Sequence record: MK373778.1
DNA from: Escherichia phage vB_EcoM_WFbE185
Direction: 5' to 3' (one strand)
Length of the DNA stretch: 64,000 nt
The notes below the pieces were generated by a model that ran no database searches, was not told the DNA's origin, and worked only from the letters and a program-made list of their open reading frames with translations. The position numbers and the translations under genes are program-made. Positions 1 to 13,333 of the stretch are shown one piece after another; position 1 is the first letter of the stretch; every line of letters starts with the position of its first letter.

Positions 1-214
1 TTTTCTTTTCGACAGCATTCAAAGGCTTGGCCTGTTTACCTTCATTAGCGCCAGGAAGAGCGAGAATACGCTCTTTGTCAATATAAAGGCTTACAAGTTT
101 CTTACGGTCTTTATCGGACAAATCATGAAATGAATGGGCTTTTTTATTTATAGCGGCTTCTAATTTACCTGCACTCACTCGCGCTTCAGTAATAAATTCT
201 TGATATGTTTTCAT
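1..214 (-). CDS. internal head protein-like (IPI/IPIII-like); N-terminal part only, ORF runs off left window edge
   Basis: ATG at 212-214 on minus strand, not in ORF track because no stop in window; N-terminus MKTYQEFITEARVSAGKLEAAINKKAHSFHDL matches T4 internal-protein capsid targeting leader. Confidence 0.6.
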   Translation of the reverse strand, partial: MKTYQEFITEARVSAGKLEAAINKKAHSFHDLSDKDRKKLVSLYIDKERILALPGANEGKQAKPLNAVEKK

Positions 215-244
215 TTTTTGTTTCCTTGTTTGTTTGATAGAGTA

Positions 245-274
245 ATTATACCATATTAATACTTAAGCGTAAAC
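245..274 (-). promoter_or_regulatory. early sigma70-type promoter (-35 GTTTAC, 18 nt, -10 TATAAT)
   Basis: minus-strand reading GTTTACgcttaagtattaatatggTATAAT about 30 nt upstream of the ATG at 214. Confidence 0.5.
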
Positions 275-277
275 AAT

Positions 278-538
278 TTAAGCTTTACCGCCAGAAATAA
301 TTCCGAAGTTGTTAAAATCGTATCCAATATCGTCAACATCTACTTTAGGACTTGCTACAACATAAGCAATTTCACTACGTTTTGCGTAGGTGTTGATTTC
401 TTTACCATCGCCACCTAAGAAAGAATACCCATTACGTTTTAATGAGCCAAAATCTTCCGCATCACCAATGAAAGCTTTAACTTTAAATTTAGGACCTTTG
501 GCATCTGCTTCAGCGATAAATTCTTGATACATTTTCAT
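278..538 (-). CDS. internal head protein-like, capsid targeting leader MKMYQEFIAE
   Basis: ORF track 86 aa; N-terminal leader of T4 IP type ending in E. Confidence 0.7.
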   Translation of the reverse strand: MKMYQEFIAEADAKGPKFKVKAFIGDAEDFGSLKRNGYSFLGGDGKEINTYAKRSEIAYVVASPKVDVDDIGYDFNNFGIISGGKA

Positions 539-544
539 TTTTCC

Positions 545-958
545 TTAGTAAATTGATTTACCATAGTATTTGTACCAAGTAGGACGTTGAGCAATTTTTT
601 CGTCTAAGCGTGCTTGACTTATCGCAATGGACGCTTCGGACGGGACGTAATTATTACGAAATTCGGCAGGGATGTCGGAAATATCCTGGACTGTTGTGTC
701 CTTGATTTTGAAACCACGTTTCAAACATTCGGCGATTAGCTCGATTTGACGTAAACGTAAAAATTCGAGTTTGTCGTAAAAGAATGTTACGTGACCTGTG
801 CCTAAGATAAATGTTGGAGAGATTTTAAAATCCTTTACACGTTTACCGTTTTGAACATGTTTACGGACTGCACCAAATACGCGTGGTAATTCACGATACT
901 CAGCCATAAGATGTTGGTCGGTCAGTTCAGAAACAAGTGTTAAATTGATACGAGTCAT
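545..958 (-). CDS. denV: endonuclease V, pyrimidine dimer DNA glycosylase
   Basis: [12 protein letters not shown]...[10 protein letters not shown] near-identical to T4 DenV as remembered; start moved to ATG at 958 (ORF track 970 is an upstream extension). Confidence 0.9.
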
Positions 959-985
959 AATTTCCTCCAAGTAGTTGATGAATGT

Positions 986-1015
986 ATAGTATCAAAGTCC
1001 TTGGAGGAAGTAAAC
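986..1015 (-). promoter_or_regulatory. early promoter (-35 GTTTAC, -10 TACTAT) for denV
   Basis: minus-strand GTTTACttcctccaaggactttgaTACTAT then leader with GGAGG before denV ATG. Confidence 0.5.
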
Positions 1016-1016
1016 A

Positions 1017-1298
1017 CTATTTTTCTGAAGCGCCTGAAATATATTTTTCAAGACGTTGTTTCATTAGCGAGCCGTTCTTAGCGATTTCTTCCGGTTTATC
1101 GCACATACGTAACAAGGCTTCAAGCTTAGCGATATCGCTGGTACGTTCAAATTTGCGAGTATCTATCTTACTAGCAAGTTCAGAAATACGTGCTAATAGA
1201 CTTTCGGCTTCAACCAAAGCTGCACCTAGCTTAGTTGCAAATGTGTCGGTAGCTTCGTTAAGAATAGATTCTGATAAAAATTCACTATATGTTTTCAT
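1017..1298 (-). CDS. internal head protein-like, leader [10 protein letters not shown]
   Basis: ORF track 1017..1313; likely start at in-frame ATG 1298 giving [10 protein letters not shown]; ATGA overlap with lysozyme stop. Confidence 0.65.
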
Positions 1299-1783
1299 AT
1301 ATACGCTTTCCAAGTTCCTGTTTTAAATGTTGAGATTACGCGTTTCGCGCGATTAGGTGTCTGACGATACCATTTAGATTGGGCTAAATTTACTGCCGCT
1401 TCGTCCCAACGTTTCTGTTGAAGCATACGAAGAGAATTAGTAAAACCGGAGACGCCTGCTACACCCATTTGGAAGACCATATTGACCAATGCACATCGAC
1501 GAACCGCATCTAAAGAATCGTATACCGGTTTAAGTTTAGCATTACCCAAGATTCCGCGAACGGCTTTATCAACGTCTTCATTAAATAGCTTTTCAGCCTC
1601 ATCAAGGGTAATTGTACCGTTGCATTTACGTCCGATCATTCTGTCAAGTTCAGCTTTAGCTACGGCTAAAGACGGGTTCTTTGTTACTAAATGGCCTATG
1701 CCAATAGTCCAAAAGCCTTCGGTGTCTTTGTATAAAGTCAGTCTAAGACCTTCGTCATTACGAAGCATTTCAAATATATTCAT
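1295..1783 (-). CDS. e: lysozyme (endolysin, T4 lysozyme family)
   Basis: [15 protein letters not shown]...TGTWKAYI about 85 percent identical to T4 lysozyme as remembered; GGGAGG SD before ATG 1783. Confidence 0.95.
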
Positions 1784-1817
1784 AATACCTCCCACGTTTA
1801 TAGGAGGTATTTATTAC

Positions 1818-2276
1818 TTATAGGAGTGTAGTGAGCACCTTATATAATGATTTGCCCATTACATATTCCCATTGAGAAGGTTTAATTAAAGCGAATGCAT
1901 CAAATTCAGGAATCTGTCGTCCTTCTGGGAATGTATGATAGGAATTACAAACACTGTTTCTGAATTGCTCGTGCTCTACAGGGATGGTATATAGGAACAG
2001 ATGAATATTCTTATTGTCTGAGTAATGATGTTCACCTAGGTCTTTCAGGAAGGCAGGGTCATATTGTGTAAACCCAGTTTCTTCTTCGCATTCACGAATA
2101 GCGGCTTCAATAGGAGATTCACCCGGCTCGACACGTCCTTTAGGAATATCCCACCGATGAGCTAAAGAACCTTTAGGACGAGAACCAGTTACACGCCCCA
2201 TGAATAATTCTTTATCTTCGGTAAGGAAAATAATACCGGCTGATAGTTCTTTCACTTTATTTTTCTTACTCATCAT
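1818..2276 (-). CDS. nudE: Nudix hydrolase
   Basis: Nudix box G-x5-E-x7-REC-EE-TG in ORF; position next to e as T4 e.1. Confidence 0.85.
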   Translation of the reverse strand: MMSKKNKVKELSAGIIFLTEDKELFMGRVTGSRPKGSLAHRWDIPKGRVEPGESPIEAAIRECEEETGFTQYDPAFLKDLGEHHYSDNKNIHLFLYTIPVEHEQFRNSVCNSYHTFPEGRQIPEFDAFALIKPSQWEYVMGKSLYKVLTTLL

Positions 2277-2517
2277 CTCGGTCCCATGATTTGGCCATTA
2301 ATTCGGACATAAATTCTTCAATGCGCGTTTCTTTAGATGGACTTTCACTATTAGAGACCGCAAGTTTGTAATCTGCAATAGGACAGAACATATCAAGGTC
2401 CATATTAAGGTCGTCTTTGATTTTTTCTTCTGACACATCTTTATCGTATGTGTACAGATAACTATCACATGATTCTGATTTAATGTAAATTGCTATACTC
2501 ATCTCAAATTCCTGCAT
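2266..2517 (-). CDS. hypothetical protein
   Basis: ORF track 83 aa; overlaps upstream ORF end, consistent with translational coupling. Confidence 0.6.
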   Translation of the reverse strand: MQEFEMSIAIYIKSESCDSYLYTYDKDVSEEKIKDDLNMDLDMFCPIADYKLAVSNSESPSKETRIEEFMSELMAKSWDRDDE

Positions 2518-2990
2518 TCGGTAATAAAACGTTCAACTTCATTATTCTTGGCCTTTATCTTGTCTTTACGTTCCTGTAAACTACTTTTAACAAGATTAAT
2601 AATGATGCCTACAGTACCTCCACCAATAATACCACCAATAATACTTACGATAGTAGATGCTAATAAGATAGCAATAATATCAACAAAACCGAAAGAACTC
2701 ACCTTAGTACTAAAAAACCATACCGACGGTACAAATATAATCCATCCTGTTATCCATTGGCACTTATTGAAAAACTTTTCAAGCTCAGCTTGAGTTGTTC
2801 GTATTACTTCATCGATAGGTTGATATCCGTTAATGTATCTGTTCACGATAATACCTGCTGGCTGGTCGATTTTAAATTCTTGGCAAATACGTTTAACTAA
2901 GTAGGATGGACATCCTGTCCAATCTACTGAATAGTATGAAATACCTTCGTTGCCATCGTCTATATTAGACCAATATGTTTTGTTAATCAT
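2499..2990 (-). CDS. hypothetical membrane protein (two predicted TM helices), C-terminal FITECR
   Basis: ORF track 163 aa; hydrophobic stretches WIIFVPSVWFF and IIAILLASTIVSIIGGIIGGG. Confidence 0.65.
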   Translation of the reverse strand: MINKTYWSNIDDGNEGISYYSVDWTGCPSYLVKRICQEFKIDQPAGIIVNRYINGYQPIDEVIRTTQAELEKFFNKCQWITGWIIFVPSVWFFSTKVSSFGFVDIIAILLASTIVSIIGGIIGGGTVGIIINLVKSSLQERKDKIKAKNNEVERFITECRNLR

Positions 2991-3676
2991 TACCAGCCTT
3001 CCATAGGGAATTCCAGATAAACTTGAGCATTGACACGAATTTCATTGGTAATCTTTTTAACTCGGTCTGTATTACGAGATACACGTCCGAACCAACGCCA
3101 TCCGTTACTAATTGCACGAGAACCAGTGTGCCATGTTTGCCAATCAAACTGAAGAAGAGTACGATCTGGAGCTTCCCATTTCTCTAGTTCACCTTTTTCA
3201 ATTTTTTCGAGGACTTCTTTGTGCCACTGGCGATAGATAAGTTCGCCATCAGGAATCTGACTGAACTCTGCAGTTCCTGTTGCAAAATGAGTAGGACACA
3301 CGTCAGCGTTAACAAGACCAAGAATGTGTTCAGACAAATAGCGAGGATTGTCATAATCAGGTTGTCCTGCAGTAATAAAGTGTTGACCTACCGGAATATC
3401 CGGGCGTGGTACATCGTCATGGTGATAACCTGGGATAGCAGGGTACCAACCAGGCATCAGCATGTGGACTCGTGAATCAAATACAACCTGATCGGTGTTC
3501 CAATCATCTGGCAAGTTCATGATGAAGCTGCGAGTAATAGGACCGCCGTTATTATAAGCAAATTCTAAACTACAGTTGAAGAACATAGGCTCGTTTTTAA
3601 TCTGCTCGTTTTTAATCGCATGAGCAAAACCACCTACTGCACGAGCTTGACTATTAAACACTTTAGAACTATTCAT
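2990..3676 (-). CDS. hypothetical protein
   Basis: ORF track 228 aa; ATG preceded by GAGGA. Confidence 0.7.
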   Translation of the reverse strand: MNSSKVFNSQARAVGGFAHAIKNEQIKNEPMFFNCSLEFAYNNGGPITRSFIMNLPDDWNTDQVVFDSRVHMLMPGWYPAIPGYHHDDVPRPDIPVGQHFITAGQPDYDNPRYLSEHILGLVNADVCPTHFATGTAEFSQIPDGELIYRQWHKEVLEKIEKGELEKWEAPDRTLLQFDWQTWHTGSRAISNGWRWFGRVSRNTDRVKKITNEIRVNAQVYLEFPMEGW

Positions 3677-3677
3677 A

Positions 3678-3983
3678 TTATTTTCCTCGACATTCTTTAA
3701 TGAAATTTTCTAGATTGGTAGATTCAATAGCTTTTTTACGAGCTTCTGCGTGTTCTTCTTCAGACAATTTACGTTTATAATTGACCCAGACATTATGGTC
3801 TAAACCGGTCGTGGCATATAATATCAAAGCTCCGACGAATAATAAAAACGGTGATAAAAATATACAACCAGGAACACCATCCATACTGTAAGCCTTTTGT
3901 AATACTGCAACAGAAAGAGCTGCGTAAAAAAGTGATGCAAATATTGTAAAAAGACCAATTCGGTTGGTTTCGCCTAATTTCAT
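3678..3983 (-). CDS. hypothetical small membrane protein, C-terminal FIKECR
   Basis: ORF track 101 aa; two hydrophobic helices; own early promoter. Confidence 0.7.
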   Translation of the reverse strand: MKLGETNRIGLFTIFASLFYAALSVAVLQKAYSMDGVPGCIFLSPFLLFVGALILYATTGLDHNVWVNYKRKLSEEEHAEARKKAIESTNLENFIKECRGK

Positions 3984-4011
3984 AATATTCTCCTCATGTT
4001 TTAATAGGACT

Positions 4012-4041
4012 ACTATAACATAGCCCTATAATTGTGTAAAC
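4012..4041 (-). promoter_or_regulatory. early promoter cassette (-35 GTTTAC, -10 TATAGT inside ataggact/agtcctat palindrome)
   Basis: minus GTTTACacaattatagggctatgtTATAGT, leader with GAGGAG before ATG 3983. Confidence 0.55.
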
Positions 4042-4053
4042 AGTTTTGTGAAG

Positions 4054-5010
4054 TTATTTGAAAGGTTTTACCATATGGAAATTTTGTTTGAAACGTTTTA
4101 CGTAATCGTCATGTCCTAAGCTTTGGTACATACTTACAACTTTGCTGTAGTTTTCCCAGGCGTATTCACGGAACCAACCGGAGGTGATGCTTGTGCAGAC
4201 TTTTTCTAATGCCATCATGAAACTGGCTTCAGGGTTAATTTTAAAGTCATTAGGAATCTGAGAACGTTCTAATGCTAGTACACATGATTCTTCATATACA
4301 CCGGCCAATTTGACCATTTCTGGTAACGATTCGAACTTCTCGCGTGAGGTCATGACTTCAGAACCGTCTTTCATATAAAATGTATACGCTGGGCGGTCTG
4401 TTAGCGCAATGGCTTCGTGAATAGTGTCATGGTCATATGTATAGATGTCATCTTTAAAGAACGCACTTTTAGAAGTGTCAAGAACTGGGTGAGCATAGTT
4501 CAAGGTTTCTTTCTGGCGTTTCAGCATAATTTCAGTAAGTTCATCGTTCAGTGTAACACCTTTACCACGAAGATACTGAATATGGTTCATAGTCTTTAAA
4601 AAGAATGGATTATTTTTCTTGAAACGATGAGACATCTTAATTGCAAGGCACATCTCAGGAGTCGCCCAGTAAAACCCGTTCAAACGGTCTTTAGACAAAT
4701 TTTTCTTGGCGTATTTTAAAAGGTCATAAGAAGACGTGAAATCTTCAGGAGTGAGTTCACCTACTAATTCACGGACATTAGTGATTGCCGGAACAATATA
4801 TGCTTCAAAATGAGTTTCGCGTCCATTATGGAAGCATTTGAAAACTTGGACATCAGGGTTATCTTGGTGAACATATACACCCATCATTTGATTTTTGAAT
4901 GCATTCCAAGAACATTGGTCCGCAATAAAGTCCCAATCACTATTTTTGATAGCGCTAGAATCAATAAGACCGTGATAGTGAAGTGCACGAGAACCAATAA
5001 CTAACATCAT
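4054..5010 (-). CDS. hypothetical protein, possible nucleotidyltransferase fold
   Basis: ORF track 318 aa; N-terminal IGSRALHYHGL...SDWDFIAD resembles GS...DxD of Pol-beta-type NTases (weak). Confidence 0.7.
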   Translation of the reverse strand: MMLVIGSRALHYHGLIDSSAIKNSDWDFIADQCSWNAFKNQMMGVYVHQDNPDVQVFKCFHNGRETHFEAYIVPAITNVRELVGELTPEDFTSSYDLLKYAKKNLSKDRLNGFYWATPEMCLAIKMSHRFKKNNPFFLKTMNHIQYLRGKGVTLNDELTEIMLKRQKETLNYAHPVLDTSKSAFFKDDIYTYDHDTIHEAIALTDRPAYTFYMKDGSEVMTSREKFESLPEMVKLAGVYEESCVLALERSQIPNDFKINPEASFMMALEKVCTSITSGWFREYAWENYSKVVSMYQSLGHDDYVKRFKQNFHMVKPFK

Positions 5011-5038
5011 AATATTTTCCTCGGATTAATTCATTAAC

Positions 5039-5278
5039 TTAAATTTCACGACATGCGATATTATATTCATCCCAGAGGTCAACATGTGAAGCCTCTACCA
5101 ATGGAACGATTGTACCGTTTATGTCTTCATTATAAGGGCAAATTGTACAGTGCGCATCTTCGAATCGGATGCCTTTATGTTCAGATTTTTTATAACGCAT
5201 ATCGAATATCTTTGCAAACTTTTCACGACTAATAGTTTTAGCAACTACTTCAGTTCCGATACTTTCGTAATAAATCAT
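5039..5278 (-). CDS. hypothetical protein
   Basis: ORF track 5039..5290; second ATG (MIYYES) has GGAG SD, first does not. Confidence 0.6.
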   Translation of the reverse strand: MIYYESIGTEVVAKTISREKFAKIFDMRYKKSEHKGIRFEDAHCTICPYNEDINGTIVPLVEASHVDLWDEYNIACREI

Positions 5279-5306
5279 TGTGGACTCCATTTAATTTGAT
5301 AGGACT

Positions 5307-5336
5307 ACTATAACATAGCCCTATCTTGTTGTAAAC
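5307..5336 (-). promoter_or_regulatory. early promoter cassette (GTTTAC / TATAGT in palindrome)
   Basis: same gataggactactataacatagccctatc cassette as at 4000. Confidence 0.55.
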
Positions 5337-5340
5337 TGTT

Positions 5341-5538
5341 TTAGCAAGAATAACTAGATGATACCCAGCCTTGAACAGTAATACTATTGTGGGATAATGA
5401 GATCGCGTCCTGGAGATTCAGACCTGCGTTATCTTCAATCCATAATGTAACTTCTTCGCGTTCTTCTGTTGCAATCTGGAACAGGTTTTCCAGAGCAGCT
5501 ACTGCGGTACGCACAGCACAATCTAATTCACGAGACAT
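5341..5538 (-). CDS. hypothetical protein, paralog family member (C-terminal GWVSSSYSC)
   Basis: ORF track 65 aa. Confidence 0.6.
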   Translation of the reverse strand: MSRELDCAVRTAVAALENLFQIATEEREEVTLWIEDNAGLNLQDAISLSHNSITVQGWVSSSYSC

Positions 5539-5547
5539 ATTGTTTCC

Positions 5548-5820
5548 TTAACAAGTGTGAGAAGATGCGACCCAACCACCAGTTTCGAGGCTCAAGTTGT
5601 AGTCGTATTGGTAAACGTCAGCCCATTCAGCATAGCCGTTTTTTGTACAACGTTCAAGATCAGCTTTAAGATGTCCGGGTGAATGATAGGTTCCACCCAT
5701 ACCATAAGCTGGGTACAAGTTGAATGTTGTGTTTTGTTTATCGGCAATTTCTTTGGCAGCCTCAATAGCTGCATAGATTTTTGCTACAGCTTCAGCCAGT
5801 TCGGTTTGTTCTTTAGACAT
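5548..5820 (-). CDS. hypothetical protein, paralog family member (C-terminal GWVASSHTC)
   Basis: ORF track 90 aa. Confidence 0.65.
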   Translation of the reverse strand: MSKEQTELAEAVAKIYAAIEAAKEIADKQNTTFNLYPAYGMGGTYHSPGHLKADLERCTKNGYAEWADVYQYDYNLSLETGGWVASSHTC

Positions 5821-5829
5821 AATGATTCC

Positions 5830-6135
5830 TTAGCACAACGCAGAAGACGAAACCCAAGCACCTTCAGTAATAACGTAACCATTACCTTCACGCTTAACAT
5901 CGCCACCATTATTTTCAATTTCATCTTTCATCCACTGGGATACGATTTCACCCTTAGGATAATAAGTACGACCGCTACCATAATCACCTACAGAAAATGA
6001 TACGGCATATTGGTCTGCGATCTTTGTTGCTTCTTCTTCGATACGTTCAGCTTGATTCAGAAGTTTATAAATTGCATCTGAAGCGGATTTGGCATCATTA
6101 AACTCTGGTACTTTAATTTCAATAATCTTACTCAT
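5830..6135 (-). CDS. hypothetical protein, paralog family member (C-terminal AWVSSSALC)
   Basis: ORF track 101 aa. Confidence 0.65.
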   Translation of the reverse strand: MSKIIEIKVPEFNDAKSASDAIYKLLNQAERIEEEATKIADQYAVSFSVGDYGSGRTYYPKGEIVSQWMKDEIENNGGDVKREGNGYVITEGAWVSSSALC

Positions 6136-6205
6136 TTTCTACATTCCTTAATAAAGTTTTCGATTGTTTCATTTTCACGTTTAGCTAGGAGTTCATTATA
6201 ACTAT

Positions 6206-6490: not shown

Positions 6491-6864
6491 CTTATTTCCT
6501 TAACGAATTCCATAGCTTCTTCATATTCATACTTTTTAACAGCTTCATCATACTGAGCTTGGGCTTTTGCGCACTGAACTTTCCATTCTCTTAATCGGGC
6601 TCTGTGATGACGGCCTTGGTGCCAATATCCTGCCCAATTAATAGGCATTAATAAAAATGGTACAATAAGTGGGGCGACGAACATTAATGAAAATGCTGCA
6701 TCAGACGATATAACTTTACTAGAATCTAAAACAGCTCCTATAATCATAAAGATTAAAAATGCTAAAGCTAAAATAGGGCCAAATAGTACTTCGTTTGGGA
6801 TTAATTTACGTTTGTATTCGTATGCCCAGGGCTTAATTGGCATGTACAGGGTTGGCTTTGACAT
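6469..6864 (-). CDS. hypothetical membrane protein, C-terminal EFVKEIRC
   Basis: ORF track 6469..6894 begins with TTG; first ATG at 6864 (MSKPTLY); two hydrophobic helices. Confidence 0.6.
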   Translation of the reverse strand: MSKPTLYMPIKPWAYEYKRKLIPNEVLFGPILALAFLIFMIIGAVLDSSKVISSDAAFSLMFVAPLIVPFLLMPINWAGYWHQGRHHRARLREWKVQCAKAQAQYDEAVKKYEYEEAMEFVKEIRCKSLNS

Positions 6865-7435
6865 ATTCTCTACATTCCATAATAAATTGCTCAAGGATTA
6901 AATTGTTAGTGAAATTAGGACTAACAACCATAGTTTCATAAAGCGCATCAATAGCACTTAAAGCATCAACTCTTTTAAGCAAAGGCTTGCCTTCATACAT
7001 AGTTTCAGAATCAACGATTAACGTAAAGTAATATTTTTTATTATCGACTAGAACTTCTGTGTCGATATAAAACATATTAGACCTCAGAAGCTTATCTCTA
7101 AAACCATAATAATCTTCTGAACGTTCGCTGATATATTCCCATTCAGTGTTTAAACAACAAACAGACCACGTAGGAGAAACGAAATCAGTGAATCTAATAT
7201 CATGGTCTGCAACTAGTTTAGCAATAGCTCCGATATCATGAATCATAATACCTGGGGCTAATAAAGATTTTCTGCTATGGCTAGCCGTTTTCTCAGTGGT
7301 CTCATAAGAAGCTGACCAGTACCATTTACGTCCGGTTGCAACATATCGTAATGAATCAACTAAAGACGTAGGTGGATTTACCTTATCTCGGAACTCTTCG
7401 AACATTGAGTCAATATCATTATTTTGGTTTCGCAT
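6833..7435 (-). CDS. hypothetical protein, C-terminal FIMECR
   Basis: ORF track 6833..7456 begins with TTG; ATG at 7435 preceded by AAAGGAG. Confidence 0.7.
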   Translation of the reverse strand: MRNQNNDIDSMFEEFRDKVNPPTSLVDSLRYVATGRKWYWSASYETTEKTASHSRKSLLAPGIMIHDIGAIAKLVADHDIRFTDFVSPTWSVCCLNTEWEYISERSEDYYGFRDKLLRSNMFYIDTEVLVDNKKYYFTLIVDSETMYEGKPLLKRVDALSAIDALYETMVVSPNFTNNLILEQFIMECREYVKANPVHAN

Positions 7436-7458
7436 GTTAACTCCTTTATTATCCAAAA

Positions 7459-7476
7459 GGAGGACCGGAGTCCTCC
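7459..7476 (-). terminator. intrinsic terminator hairpin after ORF 7485..8078
   Basis: ggaggaccggagtcctcc stem-loop followed by T-run on minus strand. Confidence 0.5.
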
Positions 7477-7484
7477 GTATTATT

Positions 7485-8078
7485 TTATTTCAAAGAGTTA
7501 ATATATTCTTGTACATCAGCAGAAGTGGTTTCGACACCGGCTAGAGTGCCATTAAACGTTTCAACACGAGTCAGAGTGTCTTCGATATCAACCTTAGTCA
7601 GTGCAGCGATTTCAATTACATCATCGGCTGTAGAGATACCAAGGGCATTGGCTGCTCGAGTTTCACGAATGTATTCGAGTTTGATTGCCAGGTTCTGACG
7701 AGCATCGTCAAGTTCAACCACCTTACGAGCAATTTCAATTCGCATAGCGGCATACCCGTCAGCTTTTGTATTAAGTTGTTCGGCAGTTCGACGATACAGA
7801 AGACCAAGCTTAGCATGCATGGTAACATCTTGTCCTTCGGCCAAGAGCTTACGAATTTCACGTTCCTTAGAAGCGGCTTGCTTATTCTTTTCAATAACAA
7901 GTTCGCGAATACGTTTTTCTTCATTAATAGATTTAACAGAGGCCGTTTTTAGTTCTTTGATTTGGGTAATCAACTTATCTGCAGCTGCGTTATACTGTTC
8001 TTCGACAGTCAGATTTTTAGCCATAGCAGTACCCAGTTTAGTGCGGATGAATTCAACAAGTTTCTTCAGTGTGTTCAT
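7485..8078 (-). CDS. hypothetical coiled-coil protein
   Basis: ORF track 7485..8120; ATG at 8078 (MNTLKKL); charged heptad-like sequence throughout. Confidence 0.7.
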
Positions 8079-8147
8079 ATTATTACCTTTCAATTGGTGG
8101 TTTATTATCCATGAGAGCATTATACTCTGCTCTCAAGAGTTTGTAAA

Positions 8148-8375
8148 TTATTTTTTAATCAAATTGACATAAAACTCTGCGTCTTCGGGGTGCATGCCTT
8201 CGCAGTATTCTTCAACCATGAACTTCTTAACGGCTTCATAAGGACCACTCAGATTAAGCTCAGTTGTCCAGAACTTGGAATCTTGTACTGAATCGATACG
8301 AACTTCAGGGTGACGGTTGCGAATAACTTCTTCTGTGTATTCATAATCAACGACATCAATACTAACTTTAGCCAT
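8148..8375 (-). CDS. hypothetical protein
   Basis: ORF track 75 aa; early promoter cassette and GAGGA upstream. Confidence 0.65.
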   Translation of the reverse strand: MAKVSIDVVDYEYTEEVIRNRHPEVRIDSVQDSKFWTTELNLSGPYEAVKKFMVEEYCEGMHPEDAEFYVNLIKK

Positions 8376-8403
8376 TTTGTTTTCCTCTTGATTTGATAGG
8401 ACT

Positions 8404-8433
8404 ACTATAACATAAACTTACTTAGATGTAAAT
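8404..8433 (-). promoter_or_regulatory. early promoter cassette (ATTTAC / TATAGT in palindrome)
   Basis: gataggactactataacat motif upstream of ORF 8148..8375. Confidence 0.45.
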
Positions 8434-8586
8434 TATTTCAACGTCACCTTTAGCTGCTTTATAACCTTCAGCCCAAGATACAACAGAGTTTTTATCTGAG
8501 GATTCAAATTCAGGCATTGGACTTTCACCAATATTCACACAGTATGTTTCTTCATTTTCATCGAACCAAATAATTAAAGTAGTCAT
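8422..8586 (-). CDS. hypothetical small protein (54 aa), not in ORF track
   Basis: hand translation MTTLIIWFDENEETYCVNIGESPMPEFESSDKNSVVSWAEGYKAAKGDVEIIYI; GAGGAG SD and early promoter upstream. Confidence 0.45.
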   Translation of the reverse strand: MTTLIIWFDENEETYCVNIGESPMPEFESSDKNSVVSWAEGYKAAKGDVEIIYI

Positions 8587-8616
8587 TTTGTTTACTCCTC
8601 TGTAGTTGATAAGTCT

Positions 8617-8646
8617 ATAGTATCACCATCCTTGGTGCTTGTACAT
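8617..8646 (-). promoter_or_regulatory. early promoter (-10 TACTAT, weak -35) with conserved leader agacttatcaactacagagga
   Basis: leader shared with the cassettes at 8989 and 45058. Confidence 0.4.
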
Positions 8647-8654
8647 CGTTATTT

Positions 8655-8960
8655 TTAATTTTTCCAACTTAACAACTTGTAGTGTCCTTCATTCGTACGA
8701 GGTTTATCCCAAGAAATACTAATATATGATTCGCTATCAATAGAAGTCGCCGGGTTTTTCTCTACCGTAAGACCTTCACTTTCCAGCCATTCAATAGTAT
8801 TTGCGCATAAATCTGAAGAACACCTCATCGGAAACCGGCAAGATTTTTCACCTTTAGCTGCAGTGTTATACATCTTTTCTAAAATACGCTTTTGCACGTT
8901 TTTAAAAATAGTTTCAGCAGATTCTTCAGATTTTTTATTCAGTTCAGTGTAAAGACTCAT
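8655..8960 (-). CDS. hypothetical protein
   Basis: ORF track 101 aa; early promoter upstream. Confidence 0.65.
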   Translation of the reverse strand: MSLYTELNKKSEESAETIFKNVQKRILEKMYNTAAKGEKSCRFPMRCSSDLCANTIEWLESEGLTVEKNPATSIDSESYISISWDKPRTNEGHYKLLSWKN

Positions 8961-8988
8961 AATATTTTCCTCTGTAGTTGATAAGTCT

Positions 8989-9017
8989 ATAATATCATGC
9001 CCTTAGAAGAAGTAAAC
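8989..9017 (-). promoter_or_regulatory. early promoter (-35 GTTTAC, 17 nt, -10 TATTAT)
   Basis: minus GTTTACttcttctaagggcatgaTATTAT then conserved leader. Confidence 0.5.
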
Positions 9018-9055
9018 ATCTTTATGAAATATTTTTATGCCCTAGATACCAAAAA

Positions 9056-9077
9056 GCCCCAACCGTAAGGAAGGGGC
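9056..9077 (-). terminator. intrinsic terminator after IP-like gene
   Basis: gccccaaccgtaaggaaggggc hairpin then T-run on minus strand. Confidence 0.6.
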
Positions 9078-9085
9078 ATTCTATA

Positions 9086-9550
9086 TTATTTAATTTGTTT
9101 AGCAGACCAGATACGGTCTTTAATAAGTTTTTGGATATCTTCAACATACTCAAGGCTATGAGCGTGAGGATTATCTTTGAAGCTATGTGCTCGAGCGAGT
9201 TTCTGACCTTCAGTTTTGATTACCAAAAGTTCTTTAAGAATTGCTTCATACTTAGAAATAATTCCTTTGGCGATATTTTTTTCTTGAGCTGCTTTAGGGT
9301 CCGCTTTTGGTGATGGTGCTTTACCTGTAGCTTTCTGGAACAATTCACCTGATGCAGCTAGGCTTTTAAAAACTCGACTAACAGTATTAGCATTAGTAAA
9401 TCCTTCAGCTTTAAAATCTCTAATAAAACGGAAACGTTCTTCATCAGAGGCGTCTTTATAAGAATATTTACCTGCTTGAATTGCTGCAATTGCTGCGGCT
9501 TTTACATCTGAACTAGATTGTTCAGTCAAAAATTCTGCATATGATTTCAT
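9086..9550 (-). CDS. internal head protein-like, leader MKSYAEFLTE
   Basis: ORF track 154 aa; capsid targeting leader; flanked by near-identical hairpins. Confidence 0.7.
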   Translation of the reverse strand: MKSYAEFLTEQSSSDVKAAAIAAIQAGKYSYKDASDEERFRFIRDFKAEGFTNANTVSRVFKSLAASGELFQKATGKAPSPKADPKAAQEKNIAKGIISKYEAILKELLVIKTEGQKLARAHSFKDNPHAHSLEYVEDIQKLIKDRIWSAKQIK

Positions 9551-9594
9551 GTTACTTTTCCTAAGTTAATTAACTTATCTATTTATTATTATGC

Positions 9595-9622
9595 AAAAAA
9601 GCCCCAACCTTTCGGAAGGGGC
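9595..9622 (-). terminator. intrinsic terminator ending the tRNA-region transcript
   Basis: gccccaacctttcggaaggggc hairpin then TTTTTT on minus strand. Confidence 0.55.
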
Positions 9623-9654
9623 TATATACCTTGTCGGGGTCCCACCTGCTAAGG

Positions 9655-9700
9655 CAAGTGTTTGTACGAAACGCCGGGATTCGAACCCGGTTATTAAGCA
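9655..9700 (-). other. tRNA-like 3' element (T-arm plus acceptor-like stem), possible small stable RNA or tRNA remnant
   Basis: minus-strand ccgggTTCGAATcccgg followed by cgtttcg that can pair with cggaacg about 60 nt upstream; no full cloverleaf. Confidence 0.25.
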
Positions 9701-9925
9701 GTTGACGCTACTCAATATTTTTAAAAGGCCATATCTCGTCCATATCCGAACGTTCCGTCAAAAACGCTACTCGGCTTACGGCAAAGATATTTCCTCGAAT
9801 CGATAATTCTGTGCGCCGTTTCTGCTGTGATGTGAGGGGATATTAACAAATCGTAAAGATTTGTTAAGACCAGTCCTTACTCAGGGAACATCAGTCCGAC
9901 GTCTTGCCGGTAGCGACCCGGCTTC

Positions 9926-10270
9926 TTATTTTGGCATATCATCAATTTGCTCTCGACGCCGACGCCATAGATTAATCGCTTCATAGGCACATTCTGCGTT
10001 TGGTATATGACGGCAATAATATAATGATTCGCGTTTCTGGAACCGATGTTGCAACGGGATTTCGTTTAAAAGGTCTTTACGGTCAAAGTATTCAAAACTA
10101 GTTAACCCGGAACGGTTTTTAAGAAACTTCCAATGTCCGAATTCATTTTTAAAATAAACATAATCAGCATGTTGATATAATGAATTAATTAACCTATCGG
10201 AAATAACTGTTTCACGTTCGTTAAAATAAAACGTTAAATCATGAACTACCAGATACACATTGCCTTTCAT
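9926..10270 (-). CDS. hypothetical protein immediately downstream of tRNA-Arg
   Basis: ORF track 9926..10318 extension overlaps the tRNA; ATG at 10270 with GAGGA SD. Confidence 0.55.
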   Translation of the reverse strand: MKGNVYLVVHDLTFYFNERETVISDRLINSLYQHADYVYFKNEFGHWKFLKNRSGLTSFEYFDRKDLLNEIPLQHRFQKRESLYYCRHIPNAECAYEAINLWRRRREQIDDMPK

Positions 10271-10288
10271 ATTTTCCTCACTTGAAGT

Positions 10289-10365
<77 letters not shown>

Positions 10366-10371
10366 AATATA

Positions 10372-10445
10372 TGACCCAGACCAGATTCGAACTGGTAACC
10401 TTTCCCTTATGAGGGGACTGCTGCTAACCATTGAGCTACAGGGCC
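10372..10445 (-). tRNA. tRNA with anticodon CAU (Met or Ile2 type)
   Basis: T-arm ACCAG-TTCGAAT-CTGGT, acceptor GGCCCTG/CTGGGTC with one mismatch, anticodon loop CTCATAA; D and anticodon stems imperfect. Confidence 0.5.
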
Positions 10446-10524
10446 TAAATAACTTTCTATTATGAAAGGCACTTTAGAGCACCTTTGGTAATAGAGGGTA
10501 TGAATTAATAATAACACATAATTC

Positions 10525-11040
10525 TTAAAGCAAATCAATCATTTTAACAGTCGGCAAAACGATTTCTTCTTCAATATAAGCAAATTCAACACATTCAACT
10601 ACACGCAAGAAATCATAATCATAATATTCAGAAGCATGGCCAAGAATATCAATGAGACCTTCTGATACTAAATATCCATTCTCATGGAACAGGTCAAATA
10701 CACGCGATTCGTCTTCTTCAGATTTATTACCAAGGTCGACTTCAATATCAAAGACCTTTTTAATGAATTCTGGATAAAGCTGGTCCGAGAACAATCCTTC
10801 AACCAAGTATTCATAGATTAAAAGCGAGCAATCACTGAATAGTGTATTACCACAGTAACGTTCAGCTTTAGTGCTAGAATGACGACTCTTAAATTTCTTC
10901 AAAAGATATTTAAACTGTTGGAGCTCATGCTCTTCCACACCAAATAATGTTTTGGTTTTATAGTTGTCGCCGTCATTTTCCCAAGTAGTGACATCAATTA
11001 CGTAACCCTTAGGAATTGTACTGCCTAAACAAATATTCAT
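10525..11040 (-). CDS. hypothetical protein
   Basis: ORF track 171 aa. Confidence 0.65.
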   Translation of the reverse strand: MNICLGSTIPKGYVIDVTTWENDGDNYKTKTLFGVEEHELQQFKYLLKKFKSRHSSTKAERYCGNTLFSDCSLLIYEYLVEGLFSDQLYPEFIKKVFDIEVDLGNKSEEDESRVFDLFHENGYLVSEGLIDILGHASEYYDYDFLRVVECVEFAYIEEEIVLPTVKMIDLL

Positions 11041-11044
11041 TTAC

Positions 11045-11335
11045 TCACCGTACCATATTAATGTAATTATATTCAATGCAACGTAATTTCAAAGGATTTT
11101 TGAAAATATCATATTCAAGAGGACCTTTTTCTGTTTCAATAAAGAAATCAAAGTTCACTGTATTAAATTTACGGTCTTCCCATAGTAATTTGACCTGTGA
11201 AGACGAACGGTCGATATAAACCTTTTCAACCTCAAAGTTAGTCAGAATACCGTAGTCGTCAACTAGTGCTTTAGCTGCACGTTGATCGCTTTCATATCCG
11301 TTCTCAATAGATGACACTTTAGCATAAAGAATCAT
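11045..11335 (-). CDS. hypothetical protein
   Basis: ORF track 96 aa; ATGA overlap with upstream ORF. Confidence 0.65.
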   Translation of the reverse strand: MILYAKVSSIENGYESDQRAAKALVDDYGILTNFEVEKVYIDRSSSQVKLLWEDRKFNTVNFDFFIETEKGPLEYDIFKNPLKLRCIEYNYINMVR

Positions 11336-11694
11336 GAATGTTCCACCACTTCAAAGGTGTGAGCATCAACAATATGATACCAGTCAAAATTTTCTTCTGC
11401 GTTTTTATAAATTTCGCGAAGAGCCTCAACGGTTTTTCCTGTAGCAACAAGGTCGTCAATACCACCAAGAGGATAACAGTCGTAACCAGCAAACAGAAGG
11501 AAATTAATAGTTTCTGTAGGTTCTGGATGCAGTGTACCATTGTCATCGACTACTTCAAAGAACATATAACCAGGCGATTTAGATTTAATCCAAGCCCATG
11601 CTTGAGCTGCTGAATCAAATGGTTTGCGTATCAAACGACAATCAGGGTCTTTAGAAGGATTTGCTTCAAAATCCGCATATACGTGATATTTCAT
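11332..11694 (-). CDS. hypothetical protein
   Basis: ORF track 11332..11727; ATG at 11694 (MKYHVY) has AGGTGA SD. Confidence 0.65.
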   Translation of the reverse strand: MKYHVYADFEANPSKDPDCRLIRKPFDSAAQAWAWIKSKSPGYMFFEVVDDNGTLHPEPTETINFLLFAGYDCYPLGGIDDLVATGKTVEALREIYKNAEENFDWYHIVDAHTFEVVEHS

Positions 11695-11695
11695 T

Positions 11696-11902
11696 TTACT
11701 CACCTTTTGCAATTTTATCCATAACAATAGCGATTAAACCGATTAGAAATGCTACTACCAATGAGATAGAATTTTCAGTTGTTGTCAGTAGTCCGCAAAT
11801 GAATCCTACAAACATCGAAAAACTAAAAGCCATTGAAGCAATTACTACAGCAACATTACGAATCAGTTCAGCGCGTTTCATTTTATTTCTCCGTTTACTC
11901 AT
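11696..11902 (-). CDS. hypothetical small membrane protein
   Basis: ORF track 68 aa; hydrophobic stretches; real start may be second ATG at 11881. Confidence 0.55.
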   Translation of the reverse strand: MSKRRNKMKRAELIRNVAVVIASMAFSFSMFVGFICGLLTTTENSISLVVAFLIGLIAIVMDKIAKGE

Positions 11903-11918
11903 TTGTTTTGATAGGACT

Positions 11919-11948
11919 ACTATAACATAGTCCTATCATCATGTAAAC
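11919..11948 (-). promoter_or_regulatory. early promoter cassette (GTTTAC / TATAGT in palindrome)
   Basis: gataggactactataacatagtcctatc. Confidence 0.55.
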
Positions 11949-11950
11949 TA

Positions 11951-12214
11951 TTAAATTCCAGCTTCGCGTTTAACATAATCAACATAAGCTTCGATAGCTT
12001 TCTTGCTGGTAATTTTTACCTGGCCACGTCCATTGCCTTCTTTAGAGTTTTTCTTAACAACTACATTACCATCTTTAACACCCCATACATGGACATAAGT
12101 ACCGATGTTTCGGTCGTAGAACATTGCATGGTCGTTGTTGTAAGAGAATGATTCGTAGTTCTCCGACAGAGTAGAAGATTGAGATTCAGCGATAAATTCT
12201 TTATACGTTTTCAT
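11951..12214 (-). CDS. internal head protein-like, leader MKTYKEFIAE
   Basis: ORF track 87 aa. Confidence 0.7.
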   Translation of the reverse strand: MKTYKEFIAESQSSTLSENYESFSYNNDHAMFYDRNIGTYVHVWGVKDGNVVVKKNSKEGNGRGQVKITSKKAIEAYVDYVKREAGI

Positions 12215-12249
12215 TTGTTTTTCCGTTTGGTTGTTGATTTGATAGGACT

Positions 12250-12279
12250 ACTATAACATAGTCCTATCGGCATGTAAAC
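12250..12279 (-). promoter_or_regulatory. early promoter cassette (GTTTAC / TATAGT in palindrome)
   Basis: gataggactactataacatagtcctatc. Confidence 0.55.
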
Positions 12280-12282
12280 TAC

Positions 12283-12570
12283 TTACAGAAGAGTTTTTGC
12301 AATAATTTTAAGCTGAGCTACAGAAATATGCTTAGCTTTAAACAGTGCAGTCTCTTCGGCCGGAGAGATAACAATAGTAGCGCCGTCTTTCTTAGCAGAC
12401 CATCCGTCCCCTAAGTAAACAGTACCTTTTACTTCTTCACCGTCAACCAGACTAATCATTGGTTTACCCTCACGTCCTTTATTTGCTTTAATAACTTCGG
12501 AAGTAAGGGTTGCTTCGGTTAGAGTAGAAACGTTAGCATCAGGTGATATAAATTCTTTATAGGTTTTCAT
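12283..12570 (-). CDS. internal head protein-like, leader MKTYKEFIS...TLTE
   Basis: ORF track 95 aa. Confidence 0.65.
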   Translation of the reverse strand: MKTYKEFISPDANVSTLTEATLTSEVIKANKGREGKPMISLVDGEEVKGTVYLGDGWSAKKDGATIVISPAEETALFKAKHISVAQLKIIAKTLL

Positions 12571-12604
12571 TTTATTTCCTTGAGGTCGTTTATTTGATAG
12601 AATG

Positions 12605-12647: not shown

Positions 12648-13333
<686 letters not shown>

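What the first reader, a model, noticed from the sequence alone, without database searches (positions are those of the whole stretch)
1..12570. Six genes carry a capsid-targeting leader: a dispersed set of injected internal proteins
Seen: six minus-strand ORFs begin MK[TSM]Y.EF[IL].E (1..214, 278..538, 1017..1298, 9086..9550, 11951..12214, 12283..12570) and share nothing recognisable after the leader. Established: T4 internal proteins IPI/IPII/IPIII carry an N-terminal capsid targeting sequence of this type that is removed by the gp21 prohead protease, and IPI protects injected DNA from a type IV restriction enzyme. Inference: these six are head-packaged, co-injected effectors, and their diversity makes them anti-defence candidates with unknown targets.
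Basis: partly seen in the sequence, partly recalled or inferred. Interest (0 to 1): 0.75.

Follow-up and report, generated by a model that had tools for sequence, protein, structure and literature searches.

The report
Known T-even phage internal proteins
Six small genes of an RB69-like T-even phage start with the well-known signal that loads T4 "internal proteins" into the phage head for injection; two match proven restriction-enzyme inhibitors, two are already labelled internal head proteins, and two are unannotated new members of this long-known class.

Summary
Six minus-strand ORFs share the leader; the exact regex fits 5 of 6, with 0 hits in 200 shuffles. The window is a Mosigvirus (RB69-like T-even phage).

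- **12283..12570** is the IpI orthologue (Pfam IPI_T4, E 1e-50).
- **1..214** is the 5' part of the IpII orthologue (93% identical to T4). T4 Ip1 and Ip2 are published inhibitors of GmrSD type IV restriction enzymes.
- **278..538 and 1017..1298** fall in PHROG families already labelled "internal head protein".
- **9086..9550 (154 aa) and 11951..12214 (87 aa)** are "hypothetical" in every record seen. They are new members.

Other support:
- The window encodes the gp21 prohead protease and the scaffold core.
- All six have an [L/I]-x-E site within 19 residues.
- In a complete relative the leader occurs only in this 12.5-kb region.
- The repertoire differs between close relatives, with slots bounded by promoter/stem-loop (PeSL) repeats.
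- The 154-aa gene is a terminator-bracketed unit with a late-promoter-like box.
- The 87-aa domain has a leaderless homologue elsewhere.

[quoted passage not shown] is established literature (Repoila 1994; Rao and Black 2010; Silas 2025). I found no virion proteomics for the four uncharacterised proteins. Low novelty.

The parts
1..214 (-). 5' part (71 of 100 codons) of the IpII orthologue. The leader is MKTYQEFITE|A. The ORF is cut by the window edge.
   Evidence: 93% identical to T4 IpII and 100% to the Shf125875 'IpII' over 71 aa. PHROG 7857 'internal virion protein', E 5e-38.
233..274 (-). Early-promoter cassette of PeSL type (GTTTAC-N18-TATAAT...CTATCAAA) upstream of ipII.
   Evidence: T4 ipI, ipII and ipIII have the same arrangement. 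The hairpin here is weak (-2.6 kcal/mol).
278..538 (-). 86-aa Ip of the RB69ORF125c type. The leader is MKMYQEFIAE|A. It lies directly downstream of the denV stop, with no promoter of its own.
   Evidence: PHROG 2667 'internal head protein', E 7e-21 over the full length. Named 'internal head protein' in SHSML-52-1 but hypothetical in most records. PhAPEC2 carries a 38-aa in-frame deletion derivative.
545..970 (-). denV (endonuclease V). This is a context gene that splits the left Ip cluster. In T4, denV lies outside the ipII-ipIII pair.
   Evidence: Annotation of relatives and of T4.
1017..1298 (-). 93-aa Ip of the RB69ORF127c type. The leader is [10 protein letters not shown]|SILNE|A, with two candidate gp21 sites. 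Its ATG overlaps the stop of the e lysozyme gene (ATGA).
   Evidence: PHROG 3499 'internal head protein', E 2e-46. 'Internal head protein' in UniRef, phage moha and RefSeq PhAPEC2. Sites; overlap.
9051..9077 (-). Terminator hairpin just downstream of the 154-aa gene. It is a near-copy of the upstream terminator.
   Evidence: Folds at -14.2 kcal/mol followed by a T-run. A terminator is annotated at the equivalent place in PhAPEC2.
9086..9550 (-). 154-aa leader-bearing protein (MKSYAEFLTE|Q), homologous to PhAPEC2_134 and RB32ORF132c. It is never annotated as an Ip and is a candidate new internal protein.
   Evidence: Strict motif. PHROG 2280 'unknown function'. Homologues in 511 phage records; every record listed is 'hypothetical' or has no annotated feature. 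Absent from T4. Distant homologues keep a CTS-like leader. AF2 pLDDT 74, helical, with a disordered leader.
9574..9590 (-). Late-promoter-like box (AATAAATA) between the terminator and the RBS of the 154-aa gene.
   Evidence: Aligned Tequatrovirus relatives have a perfect T4 late promoter TATAAATA at this exact position.
9595..9622 (-). Terminator hairpin upstream of the 154-aa gene, following rnaC.
   Evidence: Folds at -15.6 kcal/mol followed by a T-run. Annotated as a terminator in PhAPEC2.
11907..11948 (-). PeSL (early promoter plus stem-loop) downstream of the 87-aa gene and upstream of trna.4. It is a direct repeat of the copy at 12238..12279.
11951..12214 (-). 87-aa leader-bearing protein (MKTYKEFIAE|SQSSTLSE|N). 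It occupies the variable slot next to ipI, is never annotated as an Ip, and is a candidate new internal protein.
   Evidence: Strict motif. PHROG 13302 'unknown', whose profile starts at residue 16. Found in 35 phage records, none annotating it with a function. In the same slot Shf125875 has Ip7 and PhAPEC2 has nothing. A leaderless Dhakavirus homologue exists.
12238..12279 (-). PeSL upstream of the 87-aa gene.
   Evidence: GTTTAC-N-TATAGT with an 11-bp stem at -16.6 kcal/mol.
12283..12570 (-). IpI orthologue. The 19-residue propeptide is MKTYKEFISPDANVSTLTE|A and the mature IPI* is 76 aa.
   Evidence: Pfam PF11634 IPI_T4, E 1.4e-50, with residues 20-95 covering the whole 76-position model. 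88% identical to T4 IpI. RB69 IPI is reported to prevent GmrSD restriction.
12593..12634 (-). PeSL (early promoter) upstream of ipI.
   Evidence: -12.5 kcal/mol hairpin. It is homologous to the T4 ipI upstream region.
40977..41632 (+). Genes 67 and 68, prohead core proteins.
   Evidence: Pfam GP67, E 2e-20. PHROG 1049 'head scaffolding protein', E 4e-68.
41632..42273 (+). gp21 prohead serine protease, the enzyme expected to remove the leaders.
   Evidence: Pfam Peptidase_S77, E 2.8e-107.
42307..43119 (+). gp22 scaffolding core protein, the structure to which CTS-bearing proteins are targeted.
   Evidence: Pfam T4_CASP, E 1.5e-89.

Best explanation
The six ORFs are the internal-protein (Ip) repertoire of an RB69-like T-even phage.

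**Mechanism, established in T4 and inferred here.** The ~10-residue N-terminal capsid targeting sequence binds the protein to the gp22/gp67/gp68 scaffolding core while the prohead assembles. The gp21 protease then cuts after Glu of an [L/I]-x-E motif. This happens at residue 10 in five proteins, at residue 19 in IpI, and possibly at a second site in the 127c-type and 87-aa proteins. The small mature protein stays with the packaged DNA and is injected with it.

**Function.** Once inside the host, the Ips act before any phage gene is expressed, chiefly by inhibiting type IV restriction enzymes that attack hmC-modified DNA. IpI and IpII are orthologues of the T4 inhibitors of GmrSD(CT596) and GmrSD(ECOR21)/BrxU. 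The other four most likely block other variants of modification-dependent nucleases such as GmrSD or McrBC.

**Evolution.** The repertoire turns over by cassette exchange at promoter/stem-loop (PeSL) repeats. The leader itself is a portable module.

**Shown here:** sequence identity and family membership, the cleavage motifs, the presence of the protease and scaffold core, the expression signals, the locus polymorphism and the leaderless homologue.

**Inferred:** packaging, cleavage, injection and the targets of the four uncharacterised proteins.
For: - **Specificity of the leader.** 0 of 200 shuffles matched. There were no extra hits in six frames of a complete 169-kb relative.
- **Orthology.** IpI: Pfam IPI_T4 E 1.4e-50 with the mature part starting at residue 20, and 88% identity to T4. 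IpII: 93% identity to T4.
- **Existing labels.** The 125c-type and 127c-type ORFs fall in PHROGs labelled 'internal head protein' and carry that name in some records.
- **Required machinery.** gp21 protease (E 3e-107), gp22, gp67 and gp68 are encoded in the window.
- **Protein properties.** All six have an [L/I]xE site within 19 residues. The mature parts are 7.9-16 kDa, with pI 8.1-9.7 for five of them, like T4 IPs.
- **Promoters.** Three genes sit behind the same GTTTAC early-promoter/stem-loop cassette as T4 ipI, ipII and ipIII.
- **The 154-aa gene** is a terminator-bracketed unit. Relatives have a perfect late promoter TATAAATA where the window has AATAAATA. Its distant homologues, down to 48% identity, retain a CTS-like leader.
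- **Slot polymorphism.** IpII here versus IpIII in PhAPEC2. The 87-aa protein here versus Ip7 in Shf125875 versus an empty slot in PhAPEC2, with PeSL repeats at the junctions. mar005p1 carries two other Ips.
- **The peptide, not the DNA, is conserved.** 96 leader-bearing proteins use 74 distinct 30-nt leader DNAs, with synonymous variation.
- **Literature.**
  - CTS and gp21 processing.
  - Diverse Ips as counter-defence proteins.
  - Ip1, Ip2 and Ip3 each inhibit a distinct GmrSD.
  - A further CTS protein at the ipI locus inhibits McrBC.
  - PeSL-mediated shuffling and Ip differences between close phages.
Against: - There is no direct evidence that the four uncharacterised proteins are in virions or are cleaved. 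I found no proteomics.
[quoted passage not shown] The targets may therefore not be GmrSD.
- The 154-aa protein is unusually conserved for an Ip (about 70% identity across genera, 511 records). It also lies outside the two recognised Ip loci.
- Its promoter box in this window differs from the late consensus at one base.
- Structure and profile searches gave no functional hint.
- The 87-aa domain also exists without a leader, so its activity does not strictly need injection.
Confidence: 0.82

Rival explanations
1. Some of these proteins are packaged but are not anti-defence effectors. The conserved 154-aa protein is the main candidate. It could be a structural or DNA-associated head-core component (charge neutralisation, DNA organisation or ejection) that merely uses the same loading signal.
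For: - It is far more conserved than typical Ips: about 70% identity between Mosigvirus and Tequatrovirus, in 511 records.
- It is basic (pI 9.6), helical, and has a Lys/Pro/Ala-rich linker.
- It is transcribed from a late-type promoter like structural genes.
- T4 IPs were historically regarded as basic DNA-associated head proteins.
Against: - It is absent from T4 itself and from mar005p1, so it is dispensable for head assembly.
- It sits in a terminator-bounded accessory cassette.
- Ip2 and Ip3 of T4 are also basic. They were long without known function and turned out to be GmrSD inhibitors.
Confidence: 0.12
2. In the four uncharacterised ORFs the shared N-terminus is a passenger of recombination. 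The promoter/RBS/first-codons cassette is copied as DNA, and the leader has no targeting role. These would then be ordinary cytoplasmic early accessory proteins.
For: - Three genes share a whole upstream DNA cassette, and PeSL repeats bound the variable slot.
- The 87-aa domain exists leaderless in Dhakavirus as an ordinary early-region gene.
- Three of the six have early rather than late promoters.
Against: - The 125c-type, 127c-type and 154-aa genes carry the leader without the upstream cassette.
- Leader DNA varies at synonymous and free positions (74 DNA versions for 96 proteins) while the peptide and the small residue after Glu10 are kept.
- Homologues of the 154-aa protein at 48% identity still keep an x-EF-L-x-E leader.
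- The genuine T4 ip genes also use early promoters.
- Ten residues are sufficient for packaging in T4.
Confidence: 0.05
3. One or more of the ORFs are not real genes. They would be chance ORFs in an AT-rich hyperplastic region.
For: They are short (86-154 aa), and two have no functional annotation anywhere.
Against: - All are conserved as intact ORFs in tens to hundreds of phage genomes.
- All have GGA-type ribosome-binding sites at the correct spacing.
- All belong to PHROG families.
- The motif never occurs by chance.
Confidence: 0.01

Closest known systems
T4 internal protein I (IPI / IPI*, Pfam PF11634), inhibitor of GmrSD(CT596)
   Same: ORF 12283..12570 is its orthologue. It is 88% identical, has the same 95-aa length, the same 19-residue propeptide ending [L/I]TE|A, the same position next to 57B, and the same promoter cassette. 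RB69 IPI is reported to protect against GmrSD.
   Different: There are a few substitutions in the mature part. The phage's DNA is probably arabinosyl-hmC rather than glucosyl-hmC: relatives carry the RB69-type ara genes.
T4 internal protein II (Ip2), inhibitor of GmrSD(ECOR21)/BrxU
   Same: ORF 1..214 is 93% identical over the 71 codons present, with the same leader and cleavage site.
   Different: It is truncated by the window edge. Gene order also differs: here it runs e, 127c, denV, 125c, ipII, whereas in T4 it runs e, ipIII, ipII, denV. Ip3 is absent from this window, while PhAPEC2 has Ip3 in the same slot.
Polymorphic T-even Ips recognised by their leader (Ip4-Ip13 of Repoila et al. 1994, e.g. 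Ip7; Bas37_0260, an McrBC inhibitor)
   Same: The 125c-type, 127c-type, 87-aa and 154-aa ORFs share the defining leader, small size and variable presence. Five of the six genes sit at the recognised ip hotspots. The 87-aa gene occupies exactly the slot that holds Ip7 in Shf125875.
   Different: The mature sequences are unrelated to Ip1, Ip2, Ip3 or Ip7. The 154-aa and 87-aa proteins are not annotated as Ips in any record seen. The 154-aa gene lies at a third position next to rnaC, with a late-type promoter.
PeSL (promoter-early stem-loop) shuffling cassettes of T4-type phages (Arbiol 2010; Comeau 2014)
   Same: A GTTTAC -35, a -10 and an intervening stem-loop lie upstream of ipII, ipI, the 87-aa gene and trna.4. 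Near-identical direct repeats flank the variable slot. The empty slot in PhAPEC2 retains a single copy.
   Different: These are regulatory and recombination elements, not part of the proteins. Three of the six Ip genes lack one.
Other head-packaged anti-restriction proteins (phage P1 DarA/DarB/Hdf)
   Same: They follow the same strategy: proteins are loaded into the capsid during assembly and injected to protect incoming DNA from restriction (abstract).
   Different: The sequences, loading signal and phage lineage are unrelated, and Dar proteins target type I restriction-modification.

Membership tests
T-even internal proteins (CTS-bearing Ips) | N-terminal capsid targeting sequence of the MKTYQEFIAE type at the very start of the ORF | tested here: met
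   Five of six match MK[TSM]Y.EF[IL].E. The sixth has the IpI-type variant MKTYKEFISP. There were 0 matches in 200 shuffles. Among 96 leader proteins from T4-like genomes the free positions follow the same preferences: T/S/M at position 3, I/L at 8, A/S at 11.
T-even internal proteins (CTS-bearing Ips) | gp21 cleavage motif [L/I]-x-E at the end of a 10-19-residue propeptide | tested here: met
   The site ends at residue 10 in five proteins and at residue 19 in IpI. Second candidate sites occur at residue 15 (127c-type) and residue 18 (87-aa). Actual cleavage cannot be tested in silico.
T-even internal proteins (CTS-bearing Ips) | The same genome encodes the gp21 prohead protease and the gp22/67/68 scaffolding core | tested here: met
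   Peptidase_S77 E 2.8e-107, T4_CASP E 1.5e-89, GP67 E 2e-20, and the gp68 PHROG E 4e-68, all at 40977..43119.
T-even internal proteins (CTS-bearing Ips) | Physical presence of the processed protein in virions, and injection with the DNA | not testable with these tools
   My literature search found no virion proteomics for these ORFs or their homologues. This property is known for T4 IpI-III only.
T-even internal proteins (CTS-bearing Ips) | Location in the recognised ip loci (e/denV region and ipI/57B region), dispensability, and polymorphism between close relatives | tested here: met
   Five of six lie in the two loci. The repertoire differs between the window, Shf125875, PhAPEC2 and mar005p1 at about 96% overall DNA identity. 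The 154-aa gene is the exception: it lies about 2.4 kb from the ipI locus next to rnaC.
IPI_T4 (Pfam PF11634), for ORF 12283..12570 | Score above the Pfam gathering threshold over the full mature domain | tested here: met
   169.6 bits against a cut-off of 25. Residues 20-95 align to model positions 1-76 of 76.
Type IV restriction (GmrSD/McrBC) inhibitors | Demonstrated inhibition of a cognate nuclease | not testable with these tools
   This is inferred by orthology for IpI and IpII only. There is no sequence or fold similarity of the other four to any characterised inhibitor.
PeSL cassettes | Early-promoter -35/-10 boxes with an intervening or overlapping stem-loop, repeated at the borders of variable genes | tested here: met
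   Elements lie at 233..274, 11907..11948, 12238..12279 and 12593..12634. Hairpins fold at -12.5 and -16.6 kcal/mol; the ipII copy is weak at -2.6. The direct repeats bound the slot.

The most novel reading that the evidence does not exclude
Two of the six are unrecognised internal proteins that extend the picture.

1. **The 154-aa protein** would define a third Ip locus. It is late-transcribed, terminator-bracketed and next to rnaC. It is present in more than 500 T-even genomes but missing from T4, which would explain why it was overlooked. It is also unusually conserved, which suggests a target other than the fast-evolving GmrSD variants.
2. **The 87-aa protein** shares its mature domain with a leaderless early protein of Dhakavirus. 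This would mean Ips are recruited from, or released back into, the cytoplasmic accessory-gene pool by swapping the 5' leader segment within PeSL cassettes.
Probability: 0.45. Interest if true: 0.4.

Novelty: new member of a known kind. Interest (0 to 1): 0.25.

Why it matters
Injected internal proteins act before any phage gene is expressed. They decide whether hmC-modified T-even phages survive type IV restriction, which affects the host range of therapeutic phages. The class, its leader, its processing and its anti-restriction role are already established, so the finding mostly rediscovers textbook T4 biology in an RB69-like genome.

The practical value is modest:
- It gives a clean list of this phage's Ip repertoire.
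- It flags two proteins that every record seen leaves as 'hypothetical' (the 154-aa and 87-aa proteins) and two labelled but uncharacterised proteins (125c-type and 127c-type) as candidates to screen against GmrSD, McrBC and other modification-dependent nucleases.
- It offers a simple, highly specific rule (leader, [L/I]xE site and a gp21-encoding genome) for annotating such genes.

Tried and rejected
- **Pfam, NCBIfam and PDB sequence searches** of the uncharacterised proteins gave nothing beyond leader-only hits.
- **AlphaFold2 of the 154-aa protein** gave a moderate model (pLDDT 74, helical). Foldseek against the PDB found nothing significant (best E 0.5), and against BFVD only uncharacterised orthologues.
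- **AlphaFold2 of the 87-aa protein** failed (pLDDT 44, three-sequence alignment), so I ran no fold search.
- **Exhaustive HMMER search** with the mature 154-aa part found only 8 representatives, all phage-type, with no cellular homologue and no functional clue.
- **Late promoters.** I first expected TATAAATA upstream of all six genes. None is present: within 1..14000 the only copies are inside ipII (145..152) and at 13688..13695. The true T4 ip genes also use early promoters, so this expectation was dropped.
- **Misidentification corrected.** I first took ORF 1..214 for IpIII. BLASTP shows it is IpII.
- **Literature.** Searches for RB69ORF125c/127c and for Mosigvirus virion proteomics found nothing specific. 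Repoila 1994 and the supplement of the PeSL paper are not held.
- **Rfam** found only the two tRNAs in 1..13500.

Full report
**Observation.** Listing ORFs over 1..13500 recovers all six minus-strand ORFs at the stated coordinates. It hit 0 times in 200 shuffles. The sixth ORF (12283..12570) begins MKTYKEFISPD, so it shares only the first eight residues. ORF 1..214 runs off the window edge. Beyond the leader the six do not align with each other. The one exception is a weak match between IpII and the 154-aa protein: 39% over 43 residues, leader included.

**Source of the window.** The first 13 kb is 95-96% identical to many Mosigvirus (RB69-like) T-even phages. The exact 154-aa and 87-aa proteins occur in phages vB_EcoM_WFbE185 and JK45. 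Gene order on the transcribed (minus) strand is:
- 57B, ipI, the 87-aa gene, trna.4-2, RB69ORF151c
- tRNA-Met, tRNA-Arg, RB69ORF150c, rnaD, rnaC, the 154-aa gene
- the e.x genes, nudE, e, 127c, denV, 125c, ipII

.

The prohead module lies at 39.4-46.4 kb of the window. It includes gp67, gp68, the gp21 protease (Peptidase_S77, E 3e-107) and the gp22 scaffold.

**Identity of each ORF.**

| ORF | Size | Identity | Evidence |
|---|---|---|---|
| 12283..12570 | 95 aa | IpI | Pfam IPI_T4 E 1.4e-50, with the 76-residue mature domain starting at residue 20; 88% identical to T4 IpI |
| 1..214 | 71 of 100 codons | IpII | 93% identical to T4 IpII |
| 278..538 | 86 aa | RB69ORF125c type | PHROG 2667 'internal head protein'; so named in a few records, hypothetical in most |
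| 1017..1298 | 93 aa | RB69ORF127c type | PHROG 3499 'internal head protein'; same naming pattern |
| 9086..9550 | 154 aa | unknown | PHROG 2280 'unknown'; 511 phage records, none listed with a function |
| 11951..12214 | 87 aa | unknown | PHROG 13302 'unknown'; 35 records, none with a function |

I first took 1..214 for IpIII; BLASTP corrected that. RB69 IPI is reported to prevent GmrSD restriction.

**Independent support for packaging.**
- *Cleavage motif.* Every protein has an [L/I]-x-E motif ending at residue 10, or at residue 19 in IpI. The 127c-type and 87-aa proteins have a second candidate site, at residues 15 and 18.
- *Mature parts.* They are 7.9-16 kDa and mostly basic, like T4 IPs.
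- *Specificity.* In the complete genome of mar005p1 (169 kb), even a relaxed pattern finds only five ORFs. All lie in the homologous 12.5-kb region.
- *Breadth.* A capped IMG/VR scan with a degenerate leader pattern returned 24 complete T4-like genomes. They carry 86 leader-bearing ORFs, 1-6 per genome, in 26 unrelated mature-part families. Most genomes keep them within a 12-16 kb span.
- *Selection on the peptide.* 96 such proteins use 74 different 30-nt leader DNAs with synonymous changes, and the residue after Glu10 is Ala or Ser in 77 of 96.
- *Co-conservation.* Distant homologues of the 154-aa protein, down to 48% identity, still begin MLKFNEFLAE, MLEYSEFLKE or MKFKEFLIE.

**Expression.** ipII, ipI and the 87-aa gene each sit behind a GTTTAC-N17/18-TAnnnT early-type promoter whose -10 region lies in a stem-loop, followed by CTATCAAA. 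T4 ipI, ipII and ipIII have the same arrangement. These match the PeSL cassettes described for T4-type phages.

The 125c-type gene directly follows denV. The ATG of the 127c-type gene overlaps the e lysozyme stop codon.

The 154-aa gene is a self-contained unit between two near-identical terminators (9595..9622 and 9051..9077). Aligned Tequatrovirus relatives have a perfect late promoter TATAAATA where the window has AATAAATA. Late transcription is what a prohead component needs.

**Turnover.**
- *Left slot.* The window and Shf125875 carry IpII, PhAPEC2 carries IpIII, and mar005p1 carries two other Ips of 109 and 104 aa.
- *Slot next to ipI.* The window has the 87-aa gene flanked by two near-identical PeSLs. 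Shf125875 has Ip7 there. PhAPEC2 has an empty slot with a single PeSL.
- *Leaderless homologue.* The 87-aa mature domain has a 73-aa homologue in Dhakavirus phages (65% identity). It lacks the leader and lies between topoisomerase gene 52 and motA, again inside PeSL-like elements. DNA homology starts only at the mature domain. The leader therefore behaves as a swappable 5' module.

**Function.** In T4 the leader targets proteins to the scaffolding core and gp21 removes it. Ten residues are enough to load foreign proteins. Ip1, Ip2 and Ip3 each inhibit a different GmrSD type IV restriction enzyme. A further leader-bearing protein at the ipI locus of Bas37 inhibits McrBC.

The best explanation is therefore that all six are packaged, processed and injected. 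IpI and IpII would act as GmrSD inhibitors. The other four would most probably inhibit other modification-dependent nucleases. Their targets are unknown.

Profile, PDB and fold searches gave no clue:
- Sequence and profile searches were negative.
- The 154-aa AF2 model (pLDDT 74) is helical with a disordered leader and has no structural neighbour.
- The 87-aa model was unusable.

Silas et al. found no new interactions for ten other ip genes against five more GmrSD systems. This leaves room for non-GmrSD targets. I found no virion proteomics for these ORFs.

[quoted passage not shown] Silas 2025 notes that many ip genes were identified by the signal sequence. The finding is therefore a correct rediscovery.

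What is new is incremental:
- Two unannotated members.
- A third Ip position next to rnaC, with a late-type promoter.
- A leaderless homologue of an Ip domain.

**Verdict.** Interest is about 0.25.

Noticed in passing
window 9665..9803 and 9811..9929 (minus strand): These are clear homologues of the T4 stable RNAs rnaC (98% identity over 139 nt) and rnaD (84%). They lie between tRNA-Arg/ORF150c and the 154-aa gene. Rfam has no model that detects them, and the mechanical ORFs listed there (9575..9715, 9721..9849 and others) are likely spurious.
   Followed up: partly
window 5341..5538, 5548..5820, 5830..6135 (minus strand): Three tandem small ORFs of 65, 90 and 101 aa (RB69ORF136c-139c types) all end in a conserved C-terminal motif G-W-V-(S/A)-S-S-x-x-C followed by the stop codon. 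They fall in PHROGs 4882 and 899, both 'unknown function', and have no Pfam hit above threshold. The function of the motif is unexplained.
   Followed up: partly
L004 1495..1716 (Dhakavirus IME341, between gene 52 and motA): This is a leaderless 73-aa homologue of the window's 87-aa Ip candidate. It is also bounded by PeSL-like elements, and DNA homology begins only at the mature domain.
   Followed up: yes
L002 6446..6562 (PhAPEC2 gp112): This 38-aa ORF is an in-frame internal deletion derivative of the 125c-type Ip. It keeps the leader and the C-terminal 21 residues, so it may be a decaying Ip gene.
   Followed up: partly
window 5296..5336, 11907..11948, 12238..12279 (minus strand): The window holds three near-identical copies of the PeSL core GATAGG(A/G)CTATGTTATAGTAGTCCTATCA. 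The first lies upstream of RB69ORF135c, about 6.6 kb from the ipI locus. They are potential substrates for deletions or rearrangements.
   Followed up: partly
IMG/VR contigs, e.g. L029 (UViG_2706795356, genome position ~17330), L055, L061, L065: A 53-54-aa leader-bearing ORF (MKTYKEFVTEMVAGDAGG...KKRKADKDAAKKK) occurs in four T4-like genomes. It lies far from the usual Ip region, 40-50 kb away.
   Followed up: no
IMG/VR metagenomic loci among L070-L129: The MK.Y.EF..E start also heads much larger ORFs (283-440, 580, 736 and 836 aa) on metagenomic viral contigs of 30-250 kb. I did not check whether these are chance matches or large cargo proteins loaded by the same signal.
   Followed up: no
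Pfam PF24183 (DUF7412) versus window 1..214 and 12283..12570: Weak sub-threshold hits (E 0.01-0.03) align only the leader to positions 1-21 or 1-49 of this 158-position DUF. This suggests DUF7412 is itself a leader-bearing Ip family that Pfam lists as of unknown function.
   Followed up: no
L005 (Shigella phage JK45, MK962757, 27.6-30.1 kb): JK45 is filed under Tequatrovirus. Yet it is about 96% identical to the window and to Mosigvirus genomes, and it carries GlmU-like and arabinose-5-phosphate isomerase genes typical of RB69-type arabinosyl-hmC modification. The taxonomy label looks inconsistent.
   Followed up: no
protein cluster of window 278..538 (cluster 1): The 90%-identity cluster holding the 125c-type Ip also holds 137-aa DenV endonuclease V sequences and is represented by one of them. 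This looks like a clustering artefact, so names taken from that cluster are unreliable.
   Followed up: no
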